A stretch of 64,000 bases of DNA, taken from contig JAXDQS010000003.1 of assembly GCA_034667725.1 (NCBI GenBank), positions 416,001-480,000 of the forward strand. The letters run 5' to 3'. Below the pieces are notes generated by a model. It was given only the letters and a program-made list of their open reading frames with translations. It searched no databases and was not told the DNA's origin. Position numbers and translations under genes: made by a program. Positions 53,537 through 62,365 of this stretch are shown here, in pieces (the first letter of the stretch is position 1; each line of letters begins with the position of its first letter). This DNA comes from Thermoplasmata archaeon. Lineage in GTDB: Archaea > Thermoplasmatota > E2 > JACPAO01 > JAHFTW01.

Positions 53537-54307
53537 ATGGCGTCCTCGTTCCGCGCCGACCTCCTGGACGGCAAGGCGGCCGTCGTCACCGGCGGGGGCT
53601 CCGGCATCGGCCTCGCCATCGCGCAGGCGTTGGCGGGCCACGGCGCCACCGTCACCGTCGCAAGCCGCGACGCCGCCCGCCTTGCCGCGGCCGCGCAGCG
53701 CATCGGGTCGCGAGCCCGGGCGCACGCGTGCGACGTGCGCGACGCGGCCGCGGTGGCGCGGCTGGCGAAGGCGGTGGGGCCTGCGGACATCGTCGTGAAC
53801 GCGGCGGCCGGCAACTTCCCGGCGCCGTTCTCGGCGATGAGCGAGAACGCCTGGCGCACGGTGGTGGACATCGTGCTGCACGGCACCGCCAACGTCTGCC
53901 GCTCCTTCGGGCCGGCCCTGCGCGACGGCGCCTCCGTGGTCAACGTGGTCGCGGGTTACGCTTGGACGGGCGCGCCGGGCGTCAGCCACTCGGGGGCAGC
54001 CAAGGCCGGTGTGCTGAACCTCACCAAGAGCCTGGCCGTCGAATGGGCGCCGCGGGCGCGGGTCAACGCCGTGAGCCCCGGCCCCATCGACGGCACCGAG
54101 GGCATCCGGCGCCTTGCCGATGACCTGGGGCTTCGGGCGCAGATGGAGGCGGCCGTGCCGATGCGGCGGATGGGGACGCCGGAGGAGGTCGCGCAGGCGT
54201 GCCTGTTCCTCGCGAGCCCAGCGGCCAGCTACGTCACCGGCACGTGCCTGGTGGTGGACGGCGGCATGGACGCCAAGGGGCCGTTTGGGTCGCTGCTCTT
54301 AGGCTAG
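53537..54307 (+). CDS. SDR oxidoreductase, 2,4-dienoyl-CoA reductase-like
   Basis: TGGGSGIG, NAAAGNF, HSGAAKAG and SPGPI motifs. Confidence 0.88.
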   Translation: MASSFRADLLDGKAAVVTGGGSGIGLAIAQALAGHGATVTVASRDAARLAAAAQRIGSRARAHACDVRDAAAVARLAKAVGPADIVVNAAAGNFPAPFSAMSENAWRTVVDIVLHGTANVCRSFGPALRDGASVVNVVAGYAWTGAPGVSHSGAAKAGVLNLTKSLAVEWAPRARVNAVSPGPIDGTEGIRRLADDLGLRAQMEAAVPMRRMGTPEEVAQACLFLASPAASYVTGTCLVVDGGMDAKGPFGSLLLG

Positions 54308-55740
54308 CCCTGCGTGGGCATGAACACGCCGACGTCCTCGTCCGCCAGCAGCCGCACGCCGCCCGCCTGCCGCGCGAACTGCGGGTGGCTGATGACGTCG
54401 CTCGGCGCCGCCGCCGTGTTGCTCCAAGCCCCCAGCAGCCAGCCGTCGGCGTCGATGGTGGTCTCGAAGAAGTCGCCCAGGCGGCGGTCGCCGGCGGGGT
54501 CGCCCAAGGCGGCGTCGGCCTCGCAGGTCGTGCCTTGCTGGCAGATGGGGCCGACGTGGATCGGGTCGGGCGTGAACGGCACCACCGTCACCGACGGCGA
54601 CGCGCCGGTGGCGTCCAGCACGAAGGCCGTGTAGACGCGCCACTCGCCCGCGTAGGACTCGCTGGGGTCGTCGTCGACGCTGCCGATCCAGGAGACGGCG
54701 AACCGGCCGGCGGAGCCCGCCGAAATCCACGGCCAGACATAGGTGCCGTTGCCCGCCAACCCGAGGCCGAGGCGCGCGTGCGGCGTGAGGTCGAAGACCC
54801 ACGGCCAGGTGGCGCCCTCGTCGGGGGTGCCGGCGGCCCACAGGCCGTGCTCGCCTTGGGCCCAGGCGGTCCAGACGTTGCCGGCGGCGTCGAGGGCGGG
54901 CTCGGTCATCATGCGGGCGCCGCCGTCGGAGGCGTTGACGGGGGCGCGGGGCTCGCTCCAAGTGCGGCCGCCGTCGGTCGAGACCGTGATGCCGGTGCCG
55001 TTGCAGCCTTGGACGAGGTGGCCGTTGCGGGCGTCGGCGACCACGTCGGAGTTGCACGGGGTGTTGCCGCGGTCCTCCCAGGTGAGGCCCATGTCGGTGC
55101 TGGCGCGGAAGTCGGCGCCGGGCCCGAAGTAGTTGGCCGTGAAGTAGAGCTCGCCCTGGTAGGAGGCGAGCCACTGCCGGTCGACGGGGCCGCCGGAGGC
55201 CAGCGGGTTGCCGGTGAGCCAGGTGCGGCCGTCGTCGAGGCTGCACGCGACGCTTGCGGCGGCGAGGGCCTCCAGGTCGGTGGTGCAGACGGTGCCGTCG
55301 GCCAGGACCGTGAACTCGGGGTCGGAGACGCCGGCGCCGGGGCCGCGGGGGCCTTCCTCCATCTCGTTGAGGCCGACGTGCGTCCAGGTGGCGCCGTGGT
55401 CGGTGCTGCGCCACAGGAAACTCTGGCCCGCGTAGGGCGTCAAGAGCTCCTCGGGAAGCGGGTCGTCGCCCGGCCGGTAGTGGGTGAAGCCGGGATGCGC
55501 CGACACCAGGATGGTGCCCGAGGGCAGGACCGCGACGACGGGCTCGCCGCCGGCGCGCACGGTGTCGACCAGGACGGGGGCCGCGAACACGGGCAGGTCG
55601 GAAAGCGGCAGTCCCGTGAAGCCGGGCACGGCAGGGAGGCGCTCGACCTCCGCCGGCGGCTGGGGCGCGTCGTCGGGCTGGGTCTGGATGCAGCCCGCCA
55701 AGAGGGCAAGGACGAGGCAGGCGGCGGCCAGGAGGCGCAT
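54304..55740 (-). CDS. Lipoprotein with BNR/Asp-box repeats
   Basis: LLAGC; STDHGATW, SLDDGRTW, STDMGLTW, STDGGRTW; DRQW; LGDFFE. Confidence 0.85.
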   Translation of the reverse strand: MRLLAAACLVLALLAGCIQTQPDDAPQPPAEVERLPAVPGFTGLPLSDLPVFAAPVLVDTVRAGGEPVVAVLPSGTILVSAHPGFTHYRPGDDPLPEELLTPYAGQSFLWRSTDHGATWTHVGLNEMEEGPRGPGAGVSDPEFTVLADGTVCTTDLEALAAASVACSLDDGRTWLTGNPLASGGPVDRQWLASYQGELYFTANYFGPGADFRASTDMGLTWEDRGNTPCNSDVVADARNGHLVQGCNGTGITVSTDGGRTWSEPRAPVNASDGGARMMTEPALDAAGNVWTAWAQGEHGLWAAGTPDEGATWPWVFDLTPHARLGLGLAGNGTYVWPWISAGSAGRFAVSWIGSVDDDPSESYAGEWRVYTAFVLDATGASPSVTVVPFTPDPIHVGPICQQGTTCEADAALGDPAGDRRLGDFFETTIDADGWLLGAWSNTAAAPSDVISHPQFARQAGGVRLLADEDVGVFMPTQG

Positions 55741-55818
55741 GGAGGCGACTCCCAAGCGGCGGGCATAATGGTTGTGGCGGGGCGCGCAACTTTTCCCCCC
55801 GCCCTGGGTGGCCGCGGC

Positions 55819-56685
55819 ATGGAGGCCTCGATCGGCGCCACGCTCGTCACCGTGGCGATCCTGCTGTTCGGGGCGCTTCCGCTCTCGGCCGCCCTCACCC
55901 TGCTGCTGTTCTTCCCCCTGCGGGGCTGGGTGTGGGGCCGGGCCCATGCCGCCCGCGTGCTGCACCGCCACGGCATCGCGCTCGTGGCCTTGGTGGCGAT
56001 GCTGGTGCCGGAGAACCTCGAGTCCTGGATCGACCCGGAGGTGACGGCGATGCTGCCGTGGCGGGACGCGCCGACCGCCTTCATCGCCTCCTACGAGGGC
56101 GGCTTCCACGCCTGGCTCCAGGCCCTCCCCGGCCAGACCTTCCTGCTGCCCGTCCTGGCCGTCGTCTACCTCGCCGGCTTCCCCTACATCATCATCGCCG
56201 CCGTCGTGCATGGCGTCTGGCGCGACGACGGCGCCCGCGCCCGCCAGGCCGCCGCCGCCTACGCCCTCTGCTTCGCCATCGCGCTGCCGTTCTACCTGCT
56301 AGTGCCGGTCGACGAGGTCTGGCACCATTTCGGCCCCGGCAACGACGGCCCCGTCCGCCAGCTTGCCATGCAGCAGTACCCGCTGGTGCGCGACCACCTG
56401 TACGCCTTCAACGAGGTCAACAACTGCCTGCCCAGCCTGCACACCGCCATCAGCGTCGCCATGGCCTTGATCGTGCGCGGCACCCCGCGCTTCGGCAGGT
56501 TCGCGGCCGTCCTGGCCGGCCTCATCGTCGCTTCCACGATGTACCTGGGCATCCATTGGGTGACCGACGTCGTGGCCGGCCTGGGGCTCGCCTGGCTGGC
56601 CGTCTTCCTTGCTCGCCGCTTTTATCCTGCACAGGAAACCCTTCCCGTCGAAGCAACGGCCGAAGCCTCGTCGGATGGCTTATAG
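55819..56685 (+). CDS. PAP2-superfamily membrane protein (IPC-synthase-like)
   Basis: NCLPSLH and YLGIHWVTDVVAG motifs; multiple TM helices. Confidence 0.85.
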   Translation: MEASIGATLVTVAILLFGALPLSAALTLLLFFPLRGWVWGRAHAARVLHRHGIALVALVAMLVPENLESWIDPEVTAMLPWRDAPTAFIASYEGGFHAWLQALPGQTFLLPVLAVVYLAGFPYIIIAAVVHGVWRDDGARARQAAAAYALCFAIALPFYLLVPVDEVWHHFGPGNDGPVRQLAMQQYPLVRDHLYAFNEVNNCLPSLHTAISVAMALIVRGTPRFGRFAAVLAGLIVASTMYLGIHWVTDVVAGLGLAWLAVFLARRFYPAQETLPVEATAEASSDGL

Positions 56686-57592: not shown

Positions 57593-58951
57593 TCAGACCA
57601 GCTTGAGGACTTCCATGCCGCGGCCCAGGTCGCCGGTGAAGACGTAGCCGTTCCAGGCGCGGGCGTTCCAGGTGTTGATGCCCTCGGCCTGGTACTGGTC
57701 CAGCATGACGGGGGCCTTGGGGTCCGAGAAGTCGATCAGCAGCACGCCGGCGGAGTACCAGGCGATGACGATCTTGTCCTCGCCGGGCAGGACGGTGCCG
57801 AAGTGGGCCGTGCAGTTGGGGACCGCGGTGTAGGCGCTGCCCGCGGCCTGGCCGGCGACACTAGGATCTTGGTGGGGCTCGGTCGGCACGGCGGGCGCCT
57901 GCGGGGCGACGGTGGGCGGGGAGATCCAGCTCAGCATCACCGGGTCGGCCGGGTTCGAGATGTCGTAGAACCACAAGGCGCCCAGCGGCGTGGACAAGCC
58001 CGTCGTCTCCTCCTGGGCGAAGCAGGCGCCGGGGTTGCCGCCGCCGCGGTGCTCGTCGCCGATCAGCAGGATGTCGCCGTCGTTCGAGGCGGCCGCGAAG
58101 TGGTGCAGGTTGCGCGCCGGCGTCGTCCCGATGCCCGTCGGGTTGGGCGGGATGGGCGGGTTGGCGATGGGGGAGCCGACGATGGGCGAGTCCAGGTCCG
58201 ACACGAAGCCGAGGAGCTTGATGTTGAAGTCGCGCTTGGTGACGTCGAGCTCGGTCAGGTCCCAGATCTCGGTGCGCTGGATGGCGGCGCAGTAGGCGCG
58301 CAGCGTGCCCTGGCCGAAGACGCCGCTGAAGGTGGTGCCGTGGCAGCCGTGGGTGCCGAAGTCGCCCAGGATGCGCGGGTTGTAAGGGTCGGAGGCGTCG
58401 ATGAGCGCGTTCGAGCCGCCCACACCCTTGGACGGGTTGTTGAAGACGTACTCGGTGCCGGGGACGACGGCGATGTTGTGGTTCGCCTCGAACTCGACGA
58501 TGCTGGCAAACCTGGGGTTGTGGACGTCGGTGACGTCCCAGAAGTGCATGCCGTTGGTCTGGGTCGCAAGCACGAGGGTGCGGCGGCCGTCGGGGTGCGC
58601 GATGACGTCCGCCTTGCGGCTGTAGGGCGTCTCGGAGTCGTCGGGGCTGTCGTAGACCAGCTTGGGGTGGGTCGGGTCCGAGATGTCGGCGATGAAGAAG
58701 CCCTCGTTCTGCGCGGAGCCGAAGACGTAGTCGCCGGCCACGACGTTGCCCGAGCCGATCGGGTAGGCGGTGCCGTTGTCCCACGTGAGGCGGGCGACGG
58801 GCTCGAGGCCGACGGCGCGGGGCGGCTGGACCGAGGCGAAGCTGGGCTCCATGCTGAAGCCGGCGGGCTGCGGGGGCAGCGGCTCGTCGGGGTTGGTGCA
58901 GCCGGCCAGGAGAGCGGTGGCCAGGAGAAGGACAGGCAGAAGGGCGCGCAT
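57593..58951 (-). CDS. LVIVD-repeat lipoprotein
   Basis: LLAGC; DISDPTHP, DVTDVHNP, CHG, HHF, GDE, CTAH, WYSAG and RGMEVLKL. Confidence 0.85.
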   Translation of the reverse strand: MRALLPVLLLATALLAGCTNPDEPLPPQPAGFSMEPSFASVQPPRAVGLEPVARLTWDNGTAYPIGSGNVVAGDYVFGSAQNEGFFIADISDPTHPKLVYDSPDDSETPYSRKADVIAHPDGRRTLVLATQTNGMHFWDVTDVHNPRFASIVEFEANHNIAVVPGTEYVFNNPSKGVGGSNALIDASDPYNPRILGDFGTHGCHGTTFSGVFGQGTLRAYCAAIQRTEIWDLTELDVTKRDFNIKLLGFVSDLDSPIVGSPIANPPIPPNPTGIGTTPARNLHHFAAASNDGDILLIGDEHRGGGNPGACFAQEETTGLSTPLGALWFYDISNPADPVMLSWISPPTVAPQAPAVPTEPHQDPSVAGQAAGSAYTAVPNCTAHFGTVLPGEDKIVIAWYSAGVLLIDFSDPKAPVMLDQYQAEGINTWNARAWNGYVFTGDLGRGMEVLKLV

Positions 58952-59002
58952 CAGGGCCGAGGTCGGATGGGGGGGCAAAAGCGTTGCGGCAGTTGGACGG
59001 CC

Positions 59003-60235
59003 TTAGACCAGCGCCAGCACGTCCAGCCCGCGCTGCGAGTCGGCGGCGTACACGTGCCCTTCGTGGTAGCGTGCCTCCCACACCGAGGTCGGGGCGGCCT
59101 GGTGGACGGCGGCCACCTGGCGGGCCGCGGCGGGGTCGCTGAAGTCGACGAGGACGGTGCCGCCGGCGTACCAGCCGAGGACGATGAGGTCGTGGCCGTC
59201 GATGACGTCGCCCAGGTGCGTGCTGCAGTAGGCCGTCGGGCCGGGGGTCTCCTGGGCGCCGACCTGGTCGTACTCGAGCTGGAAGTAGCCGACGGGGGTC
59301 GGGTCGGCCAGGTCGGAGATGTCGAAGAACCAGAGCGCCGAGGTCGGGTAGCCGGCGGTGTCGGAGCAGGGCGGGGAGGGGGTCAGCACGCCCGCGAACT
59401 CGTCGCCCAGCACCAGCAGGGTGCCGTTGCGCGCGTCCCAGACGCCGTGGTGGATGTTGGTGCCGGGCCAGTCGATGACCTGCTGGATGACCGGGTTCAG
59501 CGGGTCGGTCGTGTCCCAGATCATGGTGTCCGAGACGCCGGCGCAGTAGGCGCGGTGCAGCTCGGCGTTGAAGGTCATCTCGTGGCAGGTGGTGGCGGTG
59601 ACGGGGCGGGGCGTGCCGCCGACGGTCACGACGACGGCCGGGAACGGGAACACCTTGACCGTCGGCTTGGCGGGGTCGGTGAAGTCGAGGATATCCACTT
59701 GGCCGGTCTCGCCGGCGCCGGGGACGTGGGTGCTGATGCTGCGCGAGTTGTAGACGACGGCGGTGCCGGGCACGACGGCGATGGTGTGCGAGCCAGGCAG
59801 GTCCACCGTGGTGACGACGAAGGGCGCTTCGGGCTGGGTCACGTCCACCAAGAGGACCGAGGCGAGGCCGCCGTTGGCCATGACGGCGTACCGGTGCCCG
59901 TTGGGGTGCAGGAAGACCTCGACGTCGCGGGTGTTCTCGGTGCCGTCGGCGCCGCTGGAGACCAGGACGGGGGCCGTCGGGTCGGAGACGTCCACGATGC
60001 GCAGGCCCGCGCTGCCCGACTGGTAGACGAGGTCGCGGTCCGCCTCGATCCAGATGCCCAGCGTGCTGTTGCCCTCCGCGTTCAGGAGGAACTGCATCCC
60101 GGTGAGGGGCTCGGGCACGCCGAGGGGGGCTTGCGCGGCGGGCGGGGACTCGGTCGGCGGCGCCGTCGGGTCGTCCTGGACGCTGATGCAGCCGGCGGCC
60201 AGGAGGGCGGCAAGAAGGACAAGGAGGGCGCGCAC
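59003..60235 (-). CDS. LVIVD-repeat lipoprotein (tandem paralog)
   Basis: LAAGC; DVSDPTAP, CHE, IHHG, GDE, CSTH, WYAGG and RGLDVLAL. Confidence 0.85.
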   Translation of the reverse strand: MRALLVLLAALLAAGCISVQDDPTAPPTESPPAAQAPLGVPEPLTGMQFLLNAEGNSTLGIWIEADRDLVYQSGSAGLRIVDVSDPTAPVLVSSGADGTENTRDVEVFLHPNGHRYAVMANGGLASVLLVDVTQPEAPFVVTTVDLPGSHTIAVVPGTAVVYNSRSISTHVPGAGETGQVDILDFTDPAKPTVKVFPFPAVVVTVGGTPRPVTATTCHEMTFNAELHRAYCAGVSDTMIWDTTDPLNPVIQQVIDWPGTNIHHGVWDARNGTLLVLGDEFAGVLTPSPPCSDTAGYPTSALWFFDISDLADPTPVGYFQLEYDQVGAQETPGPTAYCSTHLGDVIDGHDLIVLGWYAGGTVLVDFSDPAAARQVAAVHQAAPTSVWEARYHEGHVYAADSQRGLDVLALV

Positions 60236-60294
60236 GGGCTCGCGACGGGGAGCGCGGGGCAAGACCGTTTCGGCCGCCCTGGCGCCCTGGCACC

Positions 60295-60801
60295 TTATTC
60301 GTACTCGAACTGCCGCGAGTGGACCCACGCGATCAGGTCGAGCGCCACCTCGCACGACTCCGACACCTCGGGGTTCGGGTCGTGCAGGAACCGCTCCAGA
60401 ACGGGGACCGACGCCAGCTCGCCGATGGCACCCAAGGCCTCGGCGCATTCGTGGCGCACCATGACGTGCTCGTGCGGCTTCGCCAGCACCTCGGTCAGGA
60501 ACGGGACGGCGTGCGGGTCGCCCATCTGGCCGAGGACGTAGGCCAGCTCGTGGCGCAGCAGGGCGCTGGGGTCCGCGAACGCGGCCGCCAGCGCCTCGAC
60601 CGCCTCGGCGCCGCCGCGGTTCCGCAGCGCGAACACGGCGCGCATGCGCTGGAACATCGGCAGGCCGCGGTCCAGCAGGCGGGCGCGCAGCTCCGGCACG
60701 GTGGGGACGCCGGGCTTCGCCAGGTCTTGCGGCGGGGCGGGGTCCGTGCTGGTGTAGCCGGTCGCCTCGCGCATGGCGGCGAGCTGCGCCTTGCGGTCCA
60801 T
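60295..60801 (-). CDS. Half-length deoxyhypusine hydroxylase (DOHH)-like HEAT-repeat protein
   Basis: DPAPP, RAVFALRN, SALLRHELAYVLGQM, MVRHECAEALGAIG and ESCEVALD. HE motifs at H84-E85 and H117-E118, 33 aa apart. Confidence 0.8.
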   Translation of the reverse strand: MDRKAQLAAMREATGYTSTDPAPPQDLAKPGVPTVPELRARLLDRGLPMFQRMRAVFALRNRGGAEAVEALAAAFADPSALLRHELAYVLGQMGDPHAVPFLTEVLAKPHEHVMVRHECAEALGAIGELASVPVLERFLHDPNPEVSESCEVALDLIAWVHSRQFEYE

Positions 60802-60826
60802 GGCCGTTTCCAGGGGGCGGGCGACT

Positions 60827-62365
60827 TCAGGCTTGCGGCGCGGCGGGGCGCTCCAGGAGCGGGGTGCCGCCGGACTGGAGGGCGGCGCGGATCTCGATGT
60901 ACTTGCCGCCCTGGAGCGGGTCGGCGGGGTAGGCGATGAACAGCCGGCCGTCGGGGGTCGCCTCGGCCTCGAAGAAGTCCAGGAGGGCGCGGTCGGAGCC
61001 GGTGGGCTGGCAGGTGCCGCCGCGGGTGCAGACGCCGCCGAGGTGGACGTCGGGGTCCACGATGGTCTCGACGACGGTGGCGTTCGGGGTGCCGAAGCCG
61101 TCGAGCACCCAGGTGCGCAGGCCCCATTGGGCGGGCTCGTAGTCGGAGTCGGTCATGGTGGTGCCGACCAGGGCGGCCACGGCGAACCGGTCGCCGGCGC
61201 CGCCGACCACCCACGGCATGATGGGGCTGGCCTTGACCATCGCGTCGCCAGGCAGGACCGTCATGACCTCCATGGCGGCGGGCGGGTCCCAGGTGGCGCC
61301 GCCGTCGGCGCTGCGCAGCAGCCACAGGCTCGTGCCCATGGGCGCCGCCCCTGTGGGCATGGCGGACGGCCAGAAGTCGGTGGCGTAGGCGACGACGACG
61401 GTGCCATCGCCGGTGACGTCGAGGGCGGGCGCCATGTGCAGGCCGCTCCAGTGGCCGCCGGTGTCGGTGGTCCGCCAGGTGGCGCCGGTGTCGAGGATTT
61501 CCCACGTGCGGCCGCCGTCGCGGGTGCGGGCGACCTTCATGGTGAACTCCTGGCTGCCGTAGAGGATGGCCGCGGGCGCGGTGCTCGGCTGCGTGAACGG
61601 GATGTAGGCCGTGGTGGCGTCGGGGGCGAAGGCGACGGGGCCCAGCCAGCCGATGTCGCTGCCGAGGGCGAGCGCGCCGGTCCAGGTGGCGCCGCCGTCG
61701 AAGGTGGTGTTGACGAGGACGGCGCGGCCCTGCTGCTTGCCGTCCATGTCCTTGCCGGAGCCCATCCAGGCGACGACGAGGTGGCCGGGGGCGCCGGCGG
61801 CCATCCATTGCCGGTCGCTGCCTTCGCCCTGCTCGACGACGCTGCCCAGGTACGTCCAGTTGCCGTCGCGCCAGGCGTGGACCTGGATGCCGCCGCCGCC
61901 CAGGTTGCTGGCGTAGAGCGTGCCGGCGGCGTCGACCGCGACCTCGGCGTCGCCGTTGGCGGCCGGGCCGTCGTCGGAGTAGCGGCCGTCGCCGGCGCGG
62001 TTGAGGCGGGTCCAGGTGGCGCCGTCGTCGGTGGAGCGGTACACTAGGCCGTGGCCGCAAGTGTCCTGGCCCGGCACGTCGACGAGGTAGAAGCCGGCGT
62101 CGCAGCCGGGGAAGGCCACCGCGAGGGAGCCGTCGAGGGCGGCCCAGGCGCTGGGCTCGCCGCCGCCGTACACGGGGCCGGTCTTGGCGATGGCGCCGAG
62201 GAGGGTGAAGGTGGGGGCCTCCAGGGCGGCGGGCTCGACGGCGCCTTGCAGCACGTGGGTCCAGGGCGCGGGCGGGGTCGGAGCGGACGGCTGGGGGTCC
62301 GGGTCCGTGGGGTTGGTGCAGCCGGCCACGAGGGCGAGGACCGCGAGGAGGGCGAAAGCGCGCAT
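60827..62365 (-). CDS. Lipoprotein with BNR/Asp-box repeats
   Basis: LVAGC; GGEP, STDDGATW, DRQW, TRDGGRTW, SADGGATW and LLDFFE. Confidence 0.85.
   Translation of the reverse strand: MRAFALLAVLALVAGCTNPTDPDPQPSAPTPPAPWTHVLQGAVEPAALEAPTFTLLGAIAKTGPVYGGGEPSAWAALDGSLAVAFPGCDAGFYLVDVPGQDTCGHGLVYRSTDDGATWTRLNRAGDGRYSDDGPAANGDAEVAVDAAGTLYASNLGGGGIQVHAWRDGNWTYLGSVVEQGEGSDRQWMAAGAPGHLVVAWMGSGKDMDGKQQGRAVLVNTTFDGGATWTGALALGSDIGWLGPVAFAPDATTAYIPFTQPSTAPAAILYGSQEFTMKVARTRDGGRTWEILDTGATWRTTDTGGHWSGLHMAPALDVTGDGTVVVAYATDFWPSAMPTGAAPMGTSLWLLRSADGGATWDPPAAMEVMTVLPGDAMVKASPIMPWVVGGAGDRFAVAALVGTTMTDSDYEPAQWGLRTWVLDGFGTPNATVVETIVDPDVHLGGVCTRGGTCQPTGSDRALLDFFEAEATPDGRLFIAYPADPLQGGKYIEIRAALQSGGTPLLERPAAPQA

What the first reader, a model, noticed from the sequence alone, without database searches (positions are those of the whole stretch)
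60295..60801. Half-size deoxyhypusine hydroxylase homolog: possible homodimeric proto-DOHH in an archaeon
Seen: a complete 168-aa ORF with two HE motifs 33 aa apart. Known (recalled): eukaryotic DOHH (~300 aa) is an internal duplication of two HEAT arms, each with two HE motifs 33 aa apart (human H56/H89 and H207/H240), that together bind a diiron centre and hydroxylate eIF5A. This protein shares DOHH-specific strings from both arms: DPAPP, FALRN, MVRHECAEALGAI and ESCEVALD from the C-arm, and SALLxHELAYxLGQM from the N-arm. Archaea have aIF5A and deoxyhypusine synthase, but a canonical DOHH is generally reported as absent. Inference: a single-arm protein that homodimerises into a working diiron hydroxylase, either resembling the pre-duplication ancestor of DOHH or derived from a eukaryote by transfer.
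Basis: partly seen in the sequence, partly recalled or inferred. Interest (0 to 1): 0.85.

Follow-up and report, generated by a model that had tools for sequence, protein, structure and literature searches.

The report
Half-size archaeal deoxyhypusine hydroxylase homologue
An uncultured Thermoplasmatota archaeon carries a real, conserved gene equal to one of the two halves of the eukaryotic iron enzyme that finishes the hypusine modification of translation factor 5A, an enzyme that the papers I read say archaea lack; two copies probably pair to form the iron site.

Summary
Window 60295-60801 (-) encodes a 168-aa protein whose best solved relative is human deoxyhypusine hydroxylase (DOHH, 4D4Z; E 1.3e-64). 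It aligns to both DOHH arms and has two His-Glu motifs 33 residues apart.

- **Host and pathway:** the genome is a 2.3-Mb Thermoplasmatota MAG. It has one copy of this gene, a canonical deoxyhypusine synthase and an aIF5A with the PGKHG loop.
- **Distribution:** the gene is half-size everywhere I looked. It was in 107 of 401 sampled Thermoplasmatota genomes and 407 species genomes overall, including Marine Group II. It occurred only in families that also carry haem-copper oxidase.
- **Conservation:** all metal- and substrate-binding residues shared by both eukaryotic arms are invariant.
- **Dimer:** a homodimer model scored 0.85 against 0.11 for the best control, with both histidines and the invariant DPAP motif at the interface. 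This pass may reflect the solved human arm-to-arm packing.
- **Origin:** the archaeal proteins lie outside both crown eukaryotic arm clades and are closer to each arm than the arms are to each other. The root is unresolved, so ancestor-like form and ancient transfer both stay open.

Activity is untested. I found no paper describing this, but JGI pipelines already auto-name these proteins, and this scan found the family before on other DNA.

The parts
60295..60801 (-). Gene for the 168-aa half-size DOHH homologue (P0001), stop codon included
   Evidence: ORF list and translation; human DOHH 4D4Z at E 1.3e-64; GC3 0.964 and an excess of synonymous codon changes; AlphaFold2 monomer at pLDDT 91.4 with four HEAT helix pairs, best Foldseek match 4d4z at TMq 0.79
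60730..60744 (-). DPAPP motif (residues 20-24) in the N-terminal extension; it matches the inter-arm linker of eukaryotic DOHH
   Evidence: D20 P21 A22 P23 are invariant in 46 archaeal sequences. The motif is present before the C-arm in 235 of 238 eukaryotic DOHH and missing before the N-arm. Residues 19 and 21-23 touch the partner subunit in the dimer model
60547..60552 (-). First His-Glu motif (H84 E85), equivalent to human H56/E57 and H207/E208
   Evidence: Invariant in the archaeal alignment and in both arms of 238 eukaryotic DOHH; H84 lies at the predicted dimer interface
60448..60453 (-). Second His-Glu motif (H117 E118), equivalent to human H89/E90 and H240/E241
   Evidence: Invariant; H117 lies at the predicted dimer interface and touches M114 and L81 of the partner
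60529..60534 (-). G91 Q92, equivalent to human G63/G214 followed by Gln
   Evidence: Invariant in archaeal proteins and in both eukaryotic arms; at the predicted interface. The role of G63/G214 in substrate binding is recalled from published human DOHH mutagenesis and was not re-read here

Best explanation
The gene encodes a single-arm deoxyhypusine hydroxylase. Each 168-aa chain is one four-HEAT-repeat arm carrying two His-Glu motifs. Two identical chains pack face to face, with the N-terminal DPAPP segment of each reaching onto the other. This brings four His and four Glu together into the same non-haem diiron site that the N- and C-arms form within one eukaryotic DOHH chain. Using O2, the dimer would hydroxylate the deoxyhypusine side chain that deoxyhypusine synthase builds on the Lys of the SKPGKHG loop of aIF5A, giving mature hypusine. 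Shown here: homology, residue conservation, single copy, presence of the two pathway partners, and restriction to lineages with aerobic respiration genes. Inferred: dimerisation (model only), iron binding, the substrate and the activity.
For: 1. It is specifically related to DOHH, not to generic HEAT proteins. Human DOHH scores E 1.3e-64 and both arms match. All longer relatives are eukaryotic two-arm DOHH of about 300 aa at 45-58% identity. The best structural match is 4d4z.
2. H84, E85, G91, Q92, R116, H117, E118 and E121 are invariant in 46 archaeal sequences. The same residues are near-invariant in both arms of 238 eukaryotic DOHH.
3. The genome has one copy only, so a two-arm site needs a homodimer.
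4. The homodimer model with 2 Fe scored ipSAE 0.85, 0.84 and 0.85 against 0.11 for the best of 3 controls. Partner pLDDT was at least 85 and the runs shared at least 76% of their contacts. In the tool's calibration, 20 of 30 solved homomers and 1 of 23 solved monomers reached the mark; those counts hold only roughly here, because I supplied my own alignment and a ligand rode along. The interface holds H84, H117, M114 and DPAP 21-23, and most of the invariant residues lie in or next to it.
5. The substrate pathway is present. Canonical DHS scores NF002294 at 390 bits against a cut-off of 350. IF-5A scores NF003076 at 163 bits against 138 and has the SKPGKHGAAK loop.
6. Distribution fits an O2-dependent enzyme. 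The gene is in 107 of 401 sampled Thermoplasmatota genomes. Every family that has it also has haem-copper oxidase subunit I. The oxidase-negative families f4, f5, f6, f7 and f22, plus f9, which has only two weak oxidase matches, gave 0 of 156.
7. Selection is purifying.
Against: There is no biochemical evidence for iron, dimer or activity in any member. The dimer pass may come from the model's memory of the intramolecular arm-to-arm packing in solved human DOHH, so it shows likeness rather than binding. The gene is not linked to DHS or aIF5A in this genome: DHS lies 134 kb away and aIF5A is on another contig. Several aerobic Thermoplasmatota families lack the gene (f25, f26, f27, f29, f37), so it is dispensable for aerobic life. 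It also cannot explain hypusine reported in other archaea such as Sulfolobus. In Marine Group II the gene sits directly behind a menaquinone (futalosine) gene, which suggests another possible substrate. I could obtain no expression data.
Confidence: 0.7

Rival explanations
1. It is a diiron DOHH-like hydroxylase that acts on another substrate, for example a quinone intermediate or another amine, and not on aIF5A.
For: In 50 of the 80 fetched loci, all of them Marine Group II, the gene lies 4-6 bp downstream of and co-directional with an MqnA/MqnD-family gene (PF02621, E 7e-61), beside an MqnC-like radical-SAM gene. The pair stays together in both Poseidoniaceae and Thalassarchaeaceae although the flanking genes are rearranged. 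The gene is nowhere linked to DHS or aIF5A.
Against: None of 32 genomes of the window's own family has any PF02621 match, yet 17 of 18 sampled there carry the gene. The menaquinone link is therefore not general. Identity of 45-58% to eukaryotic DOHH across domains, with every shared active-site residue invariant, fits a substrate that is itself conserved between archaea and eukaryotes, namely the IF5A hypusine loop.
Confidence: 0.12
2. On origin: the archaeal gene is a stand-alone C-arm, carrying part of the linker, that reached Thermoplasmatota from a stem or early eukaryote. On this view it is not a form that predates the duplication.
For: The DPAPP extension is shared with the linker plus C-arm and is missing before the N-arm. 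The archaeal profile scores the C-arm higher in 232 of 238 eukaryotic DOHH, 184 against 147 bits on average. A quick outgroup-rooted tree joined archaeal and C-arm rows (SH-aLRT 98). Named hits come from one archaeal phylum only. The AU test does not reject an archaeal plus C-arm clade (p 0.14).
Against: In the careful tree the C-arms (98/98) and the N-arms (96/93) are each one clade and every archaeal row lies outside both, so a crown eukaryote is not the donor. Holding N and C arms together is not rejected either (p 0.24), and in the larger set that tree scored 40.7 log-likelihood units better than the quick free tree. Over the core, P0001 is 48.4% identical to N-arms and 51.1% to C-arms, while N and C arms of one protein share only 40.9%. 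At the 8 arm-discriminating columns the archaeal consensus matches N in 3, C in 3 and neither in 2. That mosaic is expected of an unspecialised single arm. The outgroup branches are very long, so its rooting is unreliable.
Confidence: 0.3
3. It is a non-catalytic HEAT-repeat scaffold or binding protein that only resembles DOHH.
For: Pfam and NCBIfam see only generic HEAT and PBS-lyase repeats, and NCBI mostly names these proteins 'HEAT repeat domain-containing'.
Against: Generic HEAT proteins score tens of orders of magnitude worse than DOHH and lack the His-Glu pairs. The metal ligands are invariant across more than 40 diverged archaeal sequences, which a scaffold role would not require.
Confidence: 0.04

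Closest known systems
Eukaryotic deoxyhypusine hydroxylase (human DOHH, PDB 4D4Z/4D50; yeast Lia1; EC 1.14.99.29; KEGG K06072)
   Same: The HEAT-repeat arm fold is the same, as are the two His-Glu motifs 33 residues apart, the G-Q after the first motif, the MVRHE and SCEVALD strings and the DPAPP segment. Identity is 45-58%. The likely substrate pathway, DHS plus IF5A, is present.
   Different: It has one arm of 168 aa, not two fused arms of about 300 aa, so the diiron site must be built by a symmetric homodimer. It is found in archaea. Its core is equally like both arms. No activity has been shown.
PBS-lyase-type HEAT repeat proteins (CpcE/CpcF, NblB, E. coli YibA; Pfam PF03130, PF13646) and designed alphaRep proteins
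   Same: The repeat type is the same. These are the only Pfam and NCBIfam models that match.
   Different: They have no His-Glu pairs and no DPAPP motif, and they score far lower: NblB 32 bits against a cut-off of 300, and CpcE structure 5n3u at E 5e-05.
Half-size DOHH homologues of Marine Group II and other Thermoplasmatota, noted earlier in this scan and auto-named 'deoxyhypusine monooxygenase' by JGI
   Same: They belong to the same family, with 55-61% identity to the Marine Group II proteins, the same length and the same motifs.
   Different: This copy belongs to a high-GC clade of groundwater and sediment MAGs. It lacks the menaquinone-gene neighbour seen in Marine Group II.

Membership tests
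Deoxyhypusine hydroxylase (DOHH/Lia1, EC 1.14.99.29) | Specific sequence homology to DOHH above generic HEAT proteins | tested here: met
   phmmer against PDB gives human DOHH at E 1.3e-64 with both arms matched. All longer relatives are eukaryotic DOHH. The best Foldseek match is 4d4z.
Deoxyhypusine hydroxylase (DOHH/Lia1, EC 1.14.99.29) | His-Glu metal-binding motifs, two per arm and 33 residues apart | tested here: met
   H84/E85 and H117/E118 are invariant in 46 archaeal sequences and in both arms of 238 eukaryotic proteins. One archaeal subgroup has a spacing of 32.
Deoxyhypusine hydroxylase (DOHH/Lia1, EC 1.14.99.29) | Two HEAT arms in one chain (four His-Glu motifs, about 300 aa) | tested here: not met
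   The protein has 168 aa and one arm. All archaeal relatives are 150-185 aa and the genome has a single copy. I therefore file it as a variant, not a canonical member.
Deoxyhypusine hydroxylase (DOHH/Lia1, EC 1.14.99.29) | Two arms packed to form one diiron site (here by homodimerisation) | tested here: inconclusive
   The dimer model scored 0.85 against 0.11 for the best control, with the His residues at the interface. This is a model only, and it may reflect memory of the solved human structure.
Deoxyhypusine hydroxylase (DOHH/Lia1, EC 1.14.99.29) | Iron content and O2-dependent hydroxylation of deoxyhypusine-IF5A | not testable with these tools
   This needs purified protein and mass spectrometry. 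The indirect support is that DHS and aIF5A are present and that the gene is confined to families carrying haem-copper oxidase.
PBS-lyase HEAT-like repeat proteins (PF03130; CpcE/NblB type) | Reaches the curated score of a named lyase or NblB equivalog | tested here: not met
   NblB scores 32 bits against a cut-off of 300 and CpcE scores 19.7 against 330. Only the repeat-level Pfam models pass.

The most novel reading that the evidence does not exclude
The half-size gene keeps the pre-duplication, homodimeric state of deoxyhypusine hydroxylase. On this reading, aerobic Thermoplasmatota, including the abundant ocean Marine Group II archaea, make fully hydroxylated hypusine with it, and the eukaryotic two-arm enzyme arose by duplication and fusion of such an archaeal gene.
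Probability: 0.3. Interest if true: 0.85.

Novelty: new variant of a known kind. Interest (0 to 1): 0.7.

Why it matters
Papers on archaeal hypusination state that no DOHH orthologue has been found in archaeal genomes and that the archaeal pathway is therefore unsolved (PMC6105217). My full-text searches found no paper that links DOHH to Thermoplasmatota, Marine Group II or Asgard archaea. A single-arm DOHH would provide three things.

- A candidate enzyme for hypusine formation in a large, ecologically important archaeal group.
- A natural test of whether the diiron site can be built by a symmetric homodimer.
- A concrete starting point for the origin of a eukaryotic signature enzyme by duplication and fusion.

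All three can be tested directly with a small, soluble protein. Two limits apply. Annotation pipelines already label these proteins 'deoxyhypusine monooxygenase', and this scan has reported the same family several times on other genomes. What is new lies in the biology and the literature, not in the databases.

Tried and rejected
- **Rooting the arm tree.** I used generic HEAT segments from giant repeat proteins as outgroup. The root moved between runs, from inside the N-arms to inside the archaeal grade. The outgroup branches were 1.4-9 changes per site, so I draw no direction of descent from them.
- **The quick 101-row tree.** It was not the best tree, because the constrained search found one 40.7 log-likelihood units better. 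I do not rely on its topology.
- **A role in menaquinone synthesis.** I considered this because of the Marine Group II gene order and downgraded it, because the window's whole family lacks MqnA/D.
- **Operon logic in the window.** The neighbours are BNR-like and LVIVD-repeat secreted proteins and iPGM, which gives no functional hint.
- **PF01287 as an aIF5A probe.** It found nothing, but it also missed Haloferax among the controls. TIGR00037 and NF003076 found the gene.
- **Other archaeal phyla.** I could not search Asgard, Thermoproteota or Halobacteriota genome by genome. The only evidence is that all named hits among the best 80 of 407 species genomes, and all named protein hits, are Thermoplasmatota or mislabelled MAGs.

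Full report
**What is there.** Window 60295-60801 on the minus strand is a complete ORF from ATG to TAA, 168 aa, kept as P0001. The window is 72% GC, so long open frames occur in all six frames. This frame has the signature of a real gene in such DNA: GC is 0.775, 0.45 and 0.964 at codon positions 1, 2 and 3. Against five of six relatives from the same family, codon changes that keep the amino acid (37-58) outnumber amino-acid changes (24-40); in the sixth the counts are 37 against 38. The two His-Glu motifs lie at residues 84-85 and 117-118, and DPAPP at residues 20-24. I checked their coordinates on the DNA.

**What it resembles.** Pfam and NCBIfam recognise only generic HEAT and PBS-lyase repeats. 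Against the Protein Data Bank, human deoxyhypusine hydroxylase (4D4Z/4D50) stands alone at E 1.3e-64.
- There are two aligned stretches. Query 39-162 matches the N-arm (chain 16-139, 103 bits).
- Query 13-165 matches the linker plus C-arm (chain 146-293, 119 bits).
- An AlphaFold2 monomer built on 46 archaeal sequences has mean pLDDT 91.4. It has four HEAT helix pairs after a less confident N-terminal 35 residues. Its best structural match is again 4d4z, at TMq 0.79 and 47% identity, well ahead of designed alphaRep proteins.

**The host and the pathway.** The window lies in a 2.32-Mb assembly of 26 contigs, estimated 90% complete.
- The closest homologues carry NCBI names such as Thermoplasmatota or Thermoplasmata archaeon.
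- The genome has exactly one match to P0001.
- It has a canonical deoxyhypusine synthase at C3:342153-343022, which scores NF002294 at 390 bits against a cut-off of 350.
- It has a second DHS-like paralogue that falls below every curated cut-off.
- It has one aIF5A, scoring NF003076 at 163 bits against 138, whose loop reads SKPGKHGAAK. This is the conserved hypusination site.
- It also has a haem-copper oxidase subunit I.

**The family.** The near-length search gave 1726 proteins. The best 120 are mostly 165-195-aa archaeal proteins at 67-88% identity. JGI auto-names many of them 'deoxyhypusine monooxygenase', and NCBI mostly calls them 'HEAT repeat domain-containing'. The longer-length search returned only eukaryotic two-arm DOHH of about 300 aa at 45-58% identity.

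In a sample of 401 Thermoplasmatota genomes, 107 carry the gene. Wherever I read the gene out of a locus it was 150-185 aa. The per-family counts were f1 (the window's family) 17/18, f12 22/36, f14 7/9 and f30 51/58, and zero in many others. A scan of one genome per prokaryotic species found 407 species with a relative. The best 80 are all Thermoplasmatota or loosely labelled MAGs. They include Poseidoniaceae and Thalassarchaeaceae, which are Marine Group II.

There are two subtypes:
- The window's family and Marine Group II have His-Glu motifs 33 residues apart, as in eukaryotes.
- Families f2, f3, f14, f21, f31, f32 and f36 have a spacing of 32.

**Conservation.** In 46 archaeal sequences (alignment A1) the invariant residues are D20 P21 A22 P23, M49 F50 R52, F57, R60, S79 L81, H84 E85, A87, G91 Q92, L102, V115 R116 H117 E118, E121, G124, L135, D141, S149 and V152. 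In 238 eukaryotic DOHH cut into arms, H, E, G, Q, R, H, E and E at the equivalent positions are invariant or nearly so in both arms. From memory of the published human structure and mutagenesis, which I did not re-read here, H56, H89, E90, H207, H240 and E241 bind the two irons. E57, E208, G63 and G214 are needed to bind deoxyhypusine-eIF5A. All of these have invariant equivalents in the half-size protein.

**Homodimer.** With one arm and one gene copy, a DOHH-type site needs two chains. The complex test used two copies, alignment A1 and two Fe(II).
- The scores were ipSAE 0.85, 0.84 and 0.85, against 0.11 for the best of three controls.
- Partner pLDDT was at least 85, and the runs shared at least 76% of their contacts.
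- In the tool's calibration the mark was reached by 20 of 30 solved homomers and 1 of 23 solved monomers. Those counts hold only roughly here, because I supplied my own alignment and a ligand rode along.
- The interface is symmetric. It contains H84, H117, M114, L81, G91, Q92, E121, G124, S149, V152 and the DPAP motif (19, 21-23).
- Most of the invariant residues therefore lie in or next to it.

The caveat is important. Human DOHH is solved, and its two arms pack in this way within one chain. The pass may therefore show likeness to that structure and not binding.

**Oxygen.** I searched haem-copper oxidase subunit I (PF00115) in the same 401 genomes.
- Every family with the half-size gene also has the oxidase (f1, f2, f3, f12, f14, f21, f30, f31, f32, f36).
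- The families without the oxidase (f4, f5, f6, f7, f22), plus f9, which has only two weak oxidase matches, have 0 of 156 genomes with the gene.
- Some oxidase-positive families lack it (f25, f26, f27, f29, f37).
- The gene is thus confined to, but not universal in, lineages with aerobic respiration genes, as expected for an O2-dependent accessory enzyme.
- Relatives are not independent, so I offer this as a pattern and not as a statistic.

**Gene neighbourhood.** In the window the gene follows, 25 bp downstream and on the same strand, a BNR-like secreted protein. It precedes two LVIVD-repeat lipoproteins, and iPGM lies further upstream. None of these bears on translation.

In Marine Group II the gene lies 4-6 bp behind an MqnA/MqnD-family gene, beside an MqnC-like radical-SAM gene and priS. 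That pair stays together although the flanks differ between the two families. This suggested a rival substrate. However, none of 32 genomes of the window's family has any MqnA/D match, while 17 of 18 sampled there carry the gene. The link is therefore lineage-specific.

**Origin.** I cut 238 eukaryotic DOHH into arms using a profile of A1.
- The C-arm scores higher than the N-arm in 232 of them (184 against 147 bits). This is largely because the match to the C-arm starts at the DPAPP linker, which the N-arm lacks.
- Over the shared core (residues 40-160), P0001 is 48.4% identical to N-arms and 51.1% to C-arms. N and C arms of the same protein share only 40.9%.
- At the eight columns where the two arms are each conserved but differ, the archaeal consensus matches N in three, C in three and neither in two.
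- The archaeal protein therefore looks like an unspecialised arm, not like a C-arm.

The trees gave the following.
- A quick outgroup-rooted tree joined archaeal and C-arm rows.
- A careful tree of 64 rows gave N-arms (96/93) and C-arms (98/98) as clades. All archaeal rows lay outside both and the backbone was weak.
- AU tests reject neither N plus C together (p 0.24) nor archaeal plus C together (p 0.14).
- In the 101-row set, the tree holding N and C together was 40.7 log-likelihood units better than the quick free tree.

I conclude that a recent transfer from a crown eukaryote is disfavoured. The choice between a form that predates the duplication and an ancient stand-alone C-type arm is open.

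**Literature and earlier notes.** Bassani et al. [quoted passage not shown] Full-text searches that paired DOHH or hypusine with Thermoplasmatota, Asgard, Marine Group II or 'deoxyhypusine monooxygenase' plus archaea found nothing relevant. The held library lacks many subscription papers, so this is not proof that no report exists.

This scan has reported the same family at least six times on other genomes, mostly Marine Group II. Those notes agree with what I found independently here.

**Verdict.** This is a real and strongly conserved single-arm DOHH homologue in an archaeon that has the rest of the hypusine pathway. The most likely function is a homodimeric diiron deoxyhypusine hydroxylase (confidence 0.7). 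It is a new variant of a known kind. It is interesting because it contradicts a standing statement in the field and is easy to test. Its score is limited because the family is already auto-annotated in databases, has been seen repeatedly in this scan and has no biochemical support.

Noticed in passing
L065:3044-4456 and L066:2928-4459 (Marine Group II loci); 50 of 80 fetched loci: In Poseidoniaceae and Thalassarchaeaceae the half-size DOHH gene lies 4-6 bp downstream of, and co-directional with, an MqnA/MqnD-family menaquinone gene. An MqnC-like radical-SAM gene and priS lie nearby. The pair stays together although the flanks are rearranged.
   Followed up: yes
G000:C2:107388-108314 (L003:1501-2427), outside the window: The genome has a second deoxyhypusine-synthase-like paralogue. 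It is below all curated NCBIfam cut-offs and scores similarly for DHS, homospermidine synthase and 1,9-bis(guanidino)-5-aza-nonane synthase models, so it may be a polyamine enzyme and not a second DHS.
   Followed up: partly
L021, L026 (families f3 and f2, same order as the window's genome) against L016-L020 (Marine Group II): The window's family has the subtype with His-Glu motifs 33 residues apart, and its protein is 55-61% identical to Marine Group II proteins. The two sister families of its own order carry the 32-spacing subtype at 53-54% identity. The gene tree may therefore not follow the species tree, through transfer within the phylum or old paralogy.
   Followed up: partly
window 54307-56298 (-), 57596-58978 (-), 59006-60268 (-), 60830-62200 (-): A run of same-strand genes for secreted or lipobox proteins with BNR/sialidase-like and LVIVD repeats surrounds the DOHH-like gene. 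The LVIVD protein at 59006-60268 has an LLAAGC lipobox. The long upstream extension of its ORF, which overlaps the DOHH gene, is probably not translated.
   Followed up: partly
window 60802-60826 and the equivalent stretch of L005-L008: The roughly 14 bases before the start codon are conserved among close relatives in the window's family (CTGGAA.GG type, e.g. ccctggaaacggccATG). This may be a ribosome-binding or other translation signal in the 25-bp gap after the upstream gene.
   Followed up: no
G243:C36:95396-95845 and G267:C122:4347-4766: Two Marine Group II-type genomes have copies with in-frame stops (1 TGA; 1 TAG plus 1 TAA). These may be pseudogenes or assembly errors.
   Followed up: no
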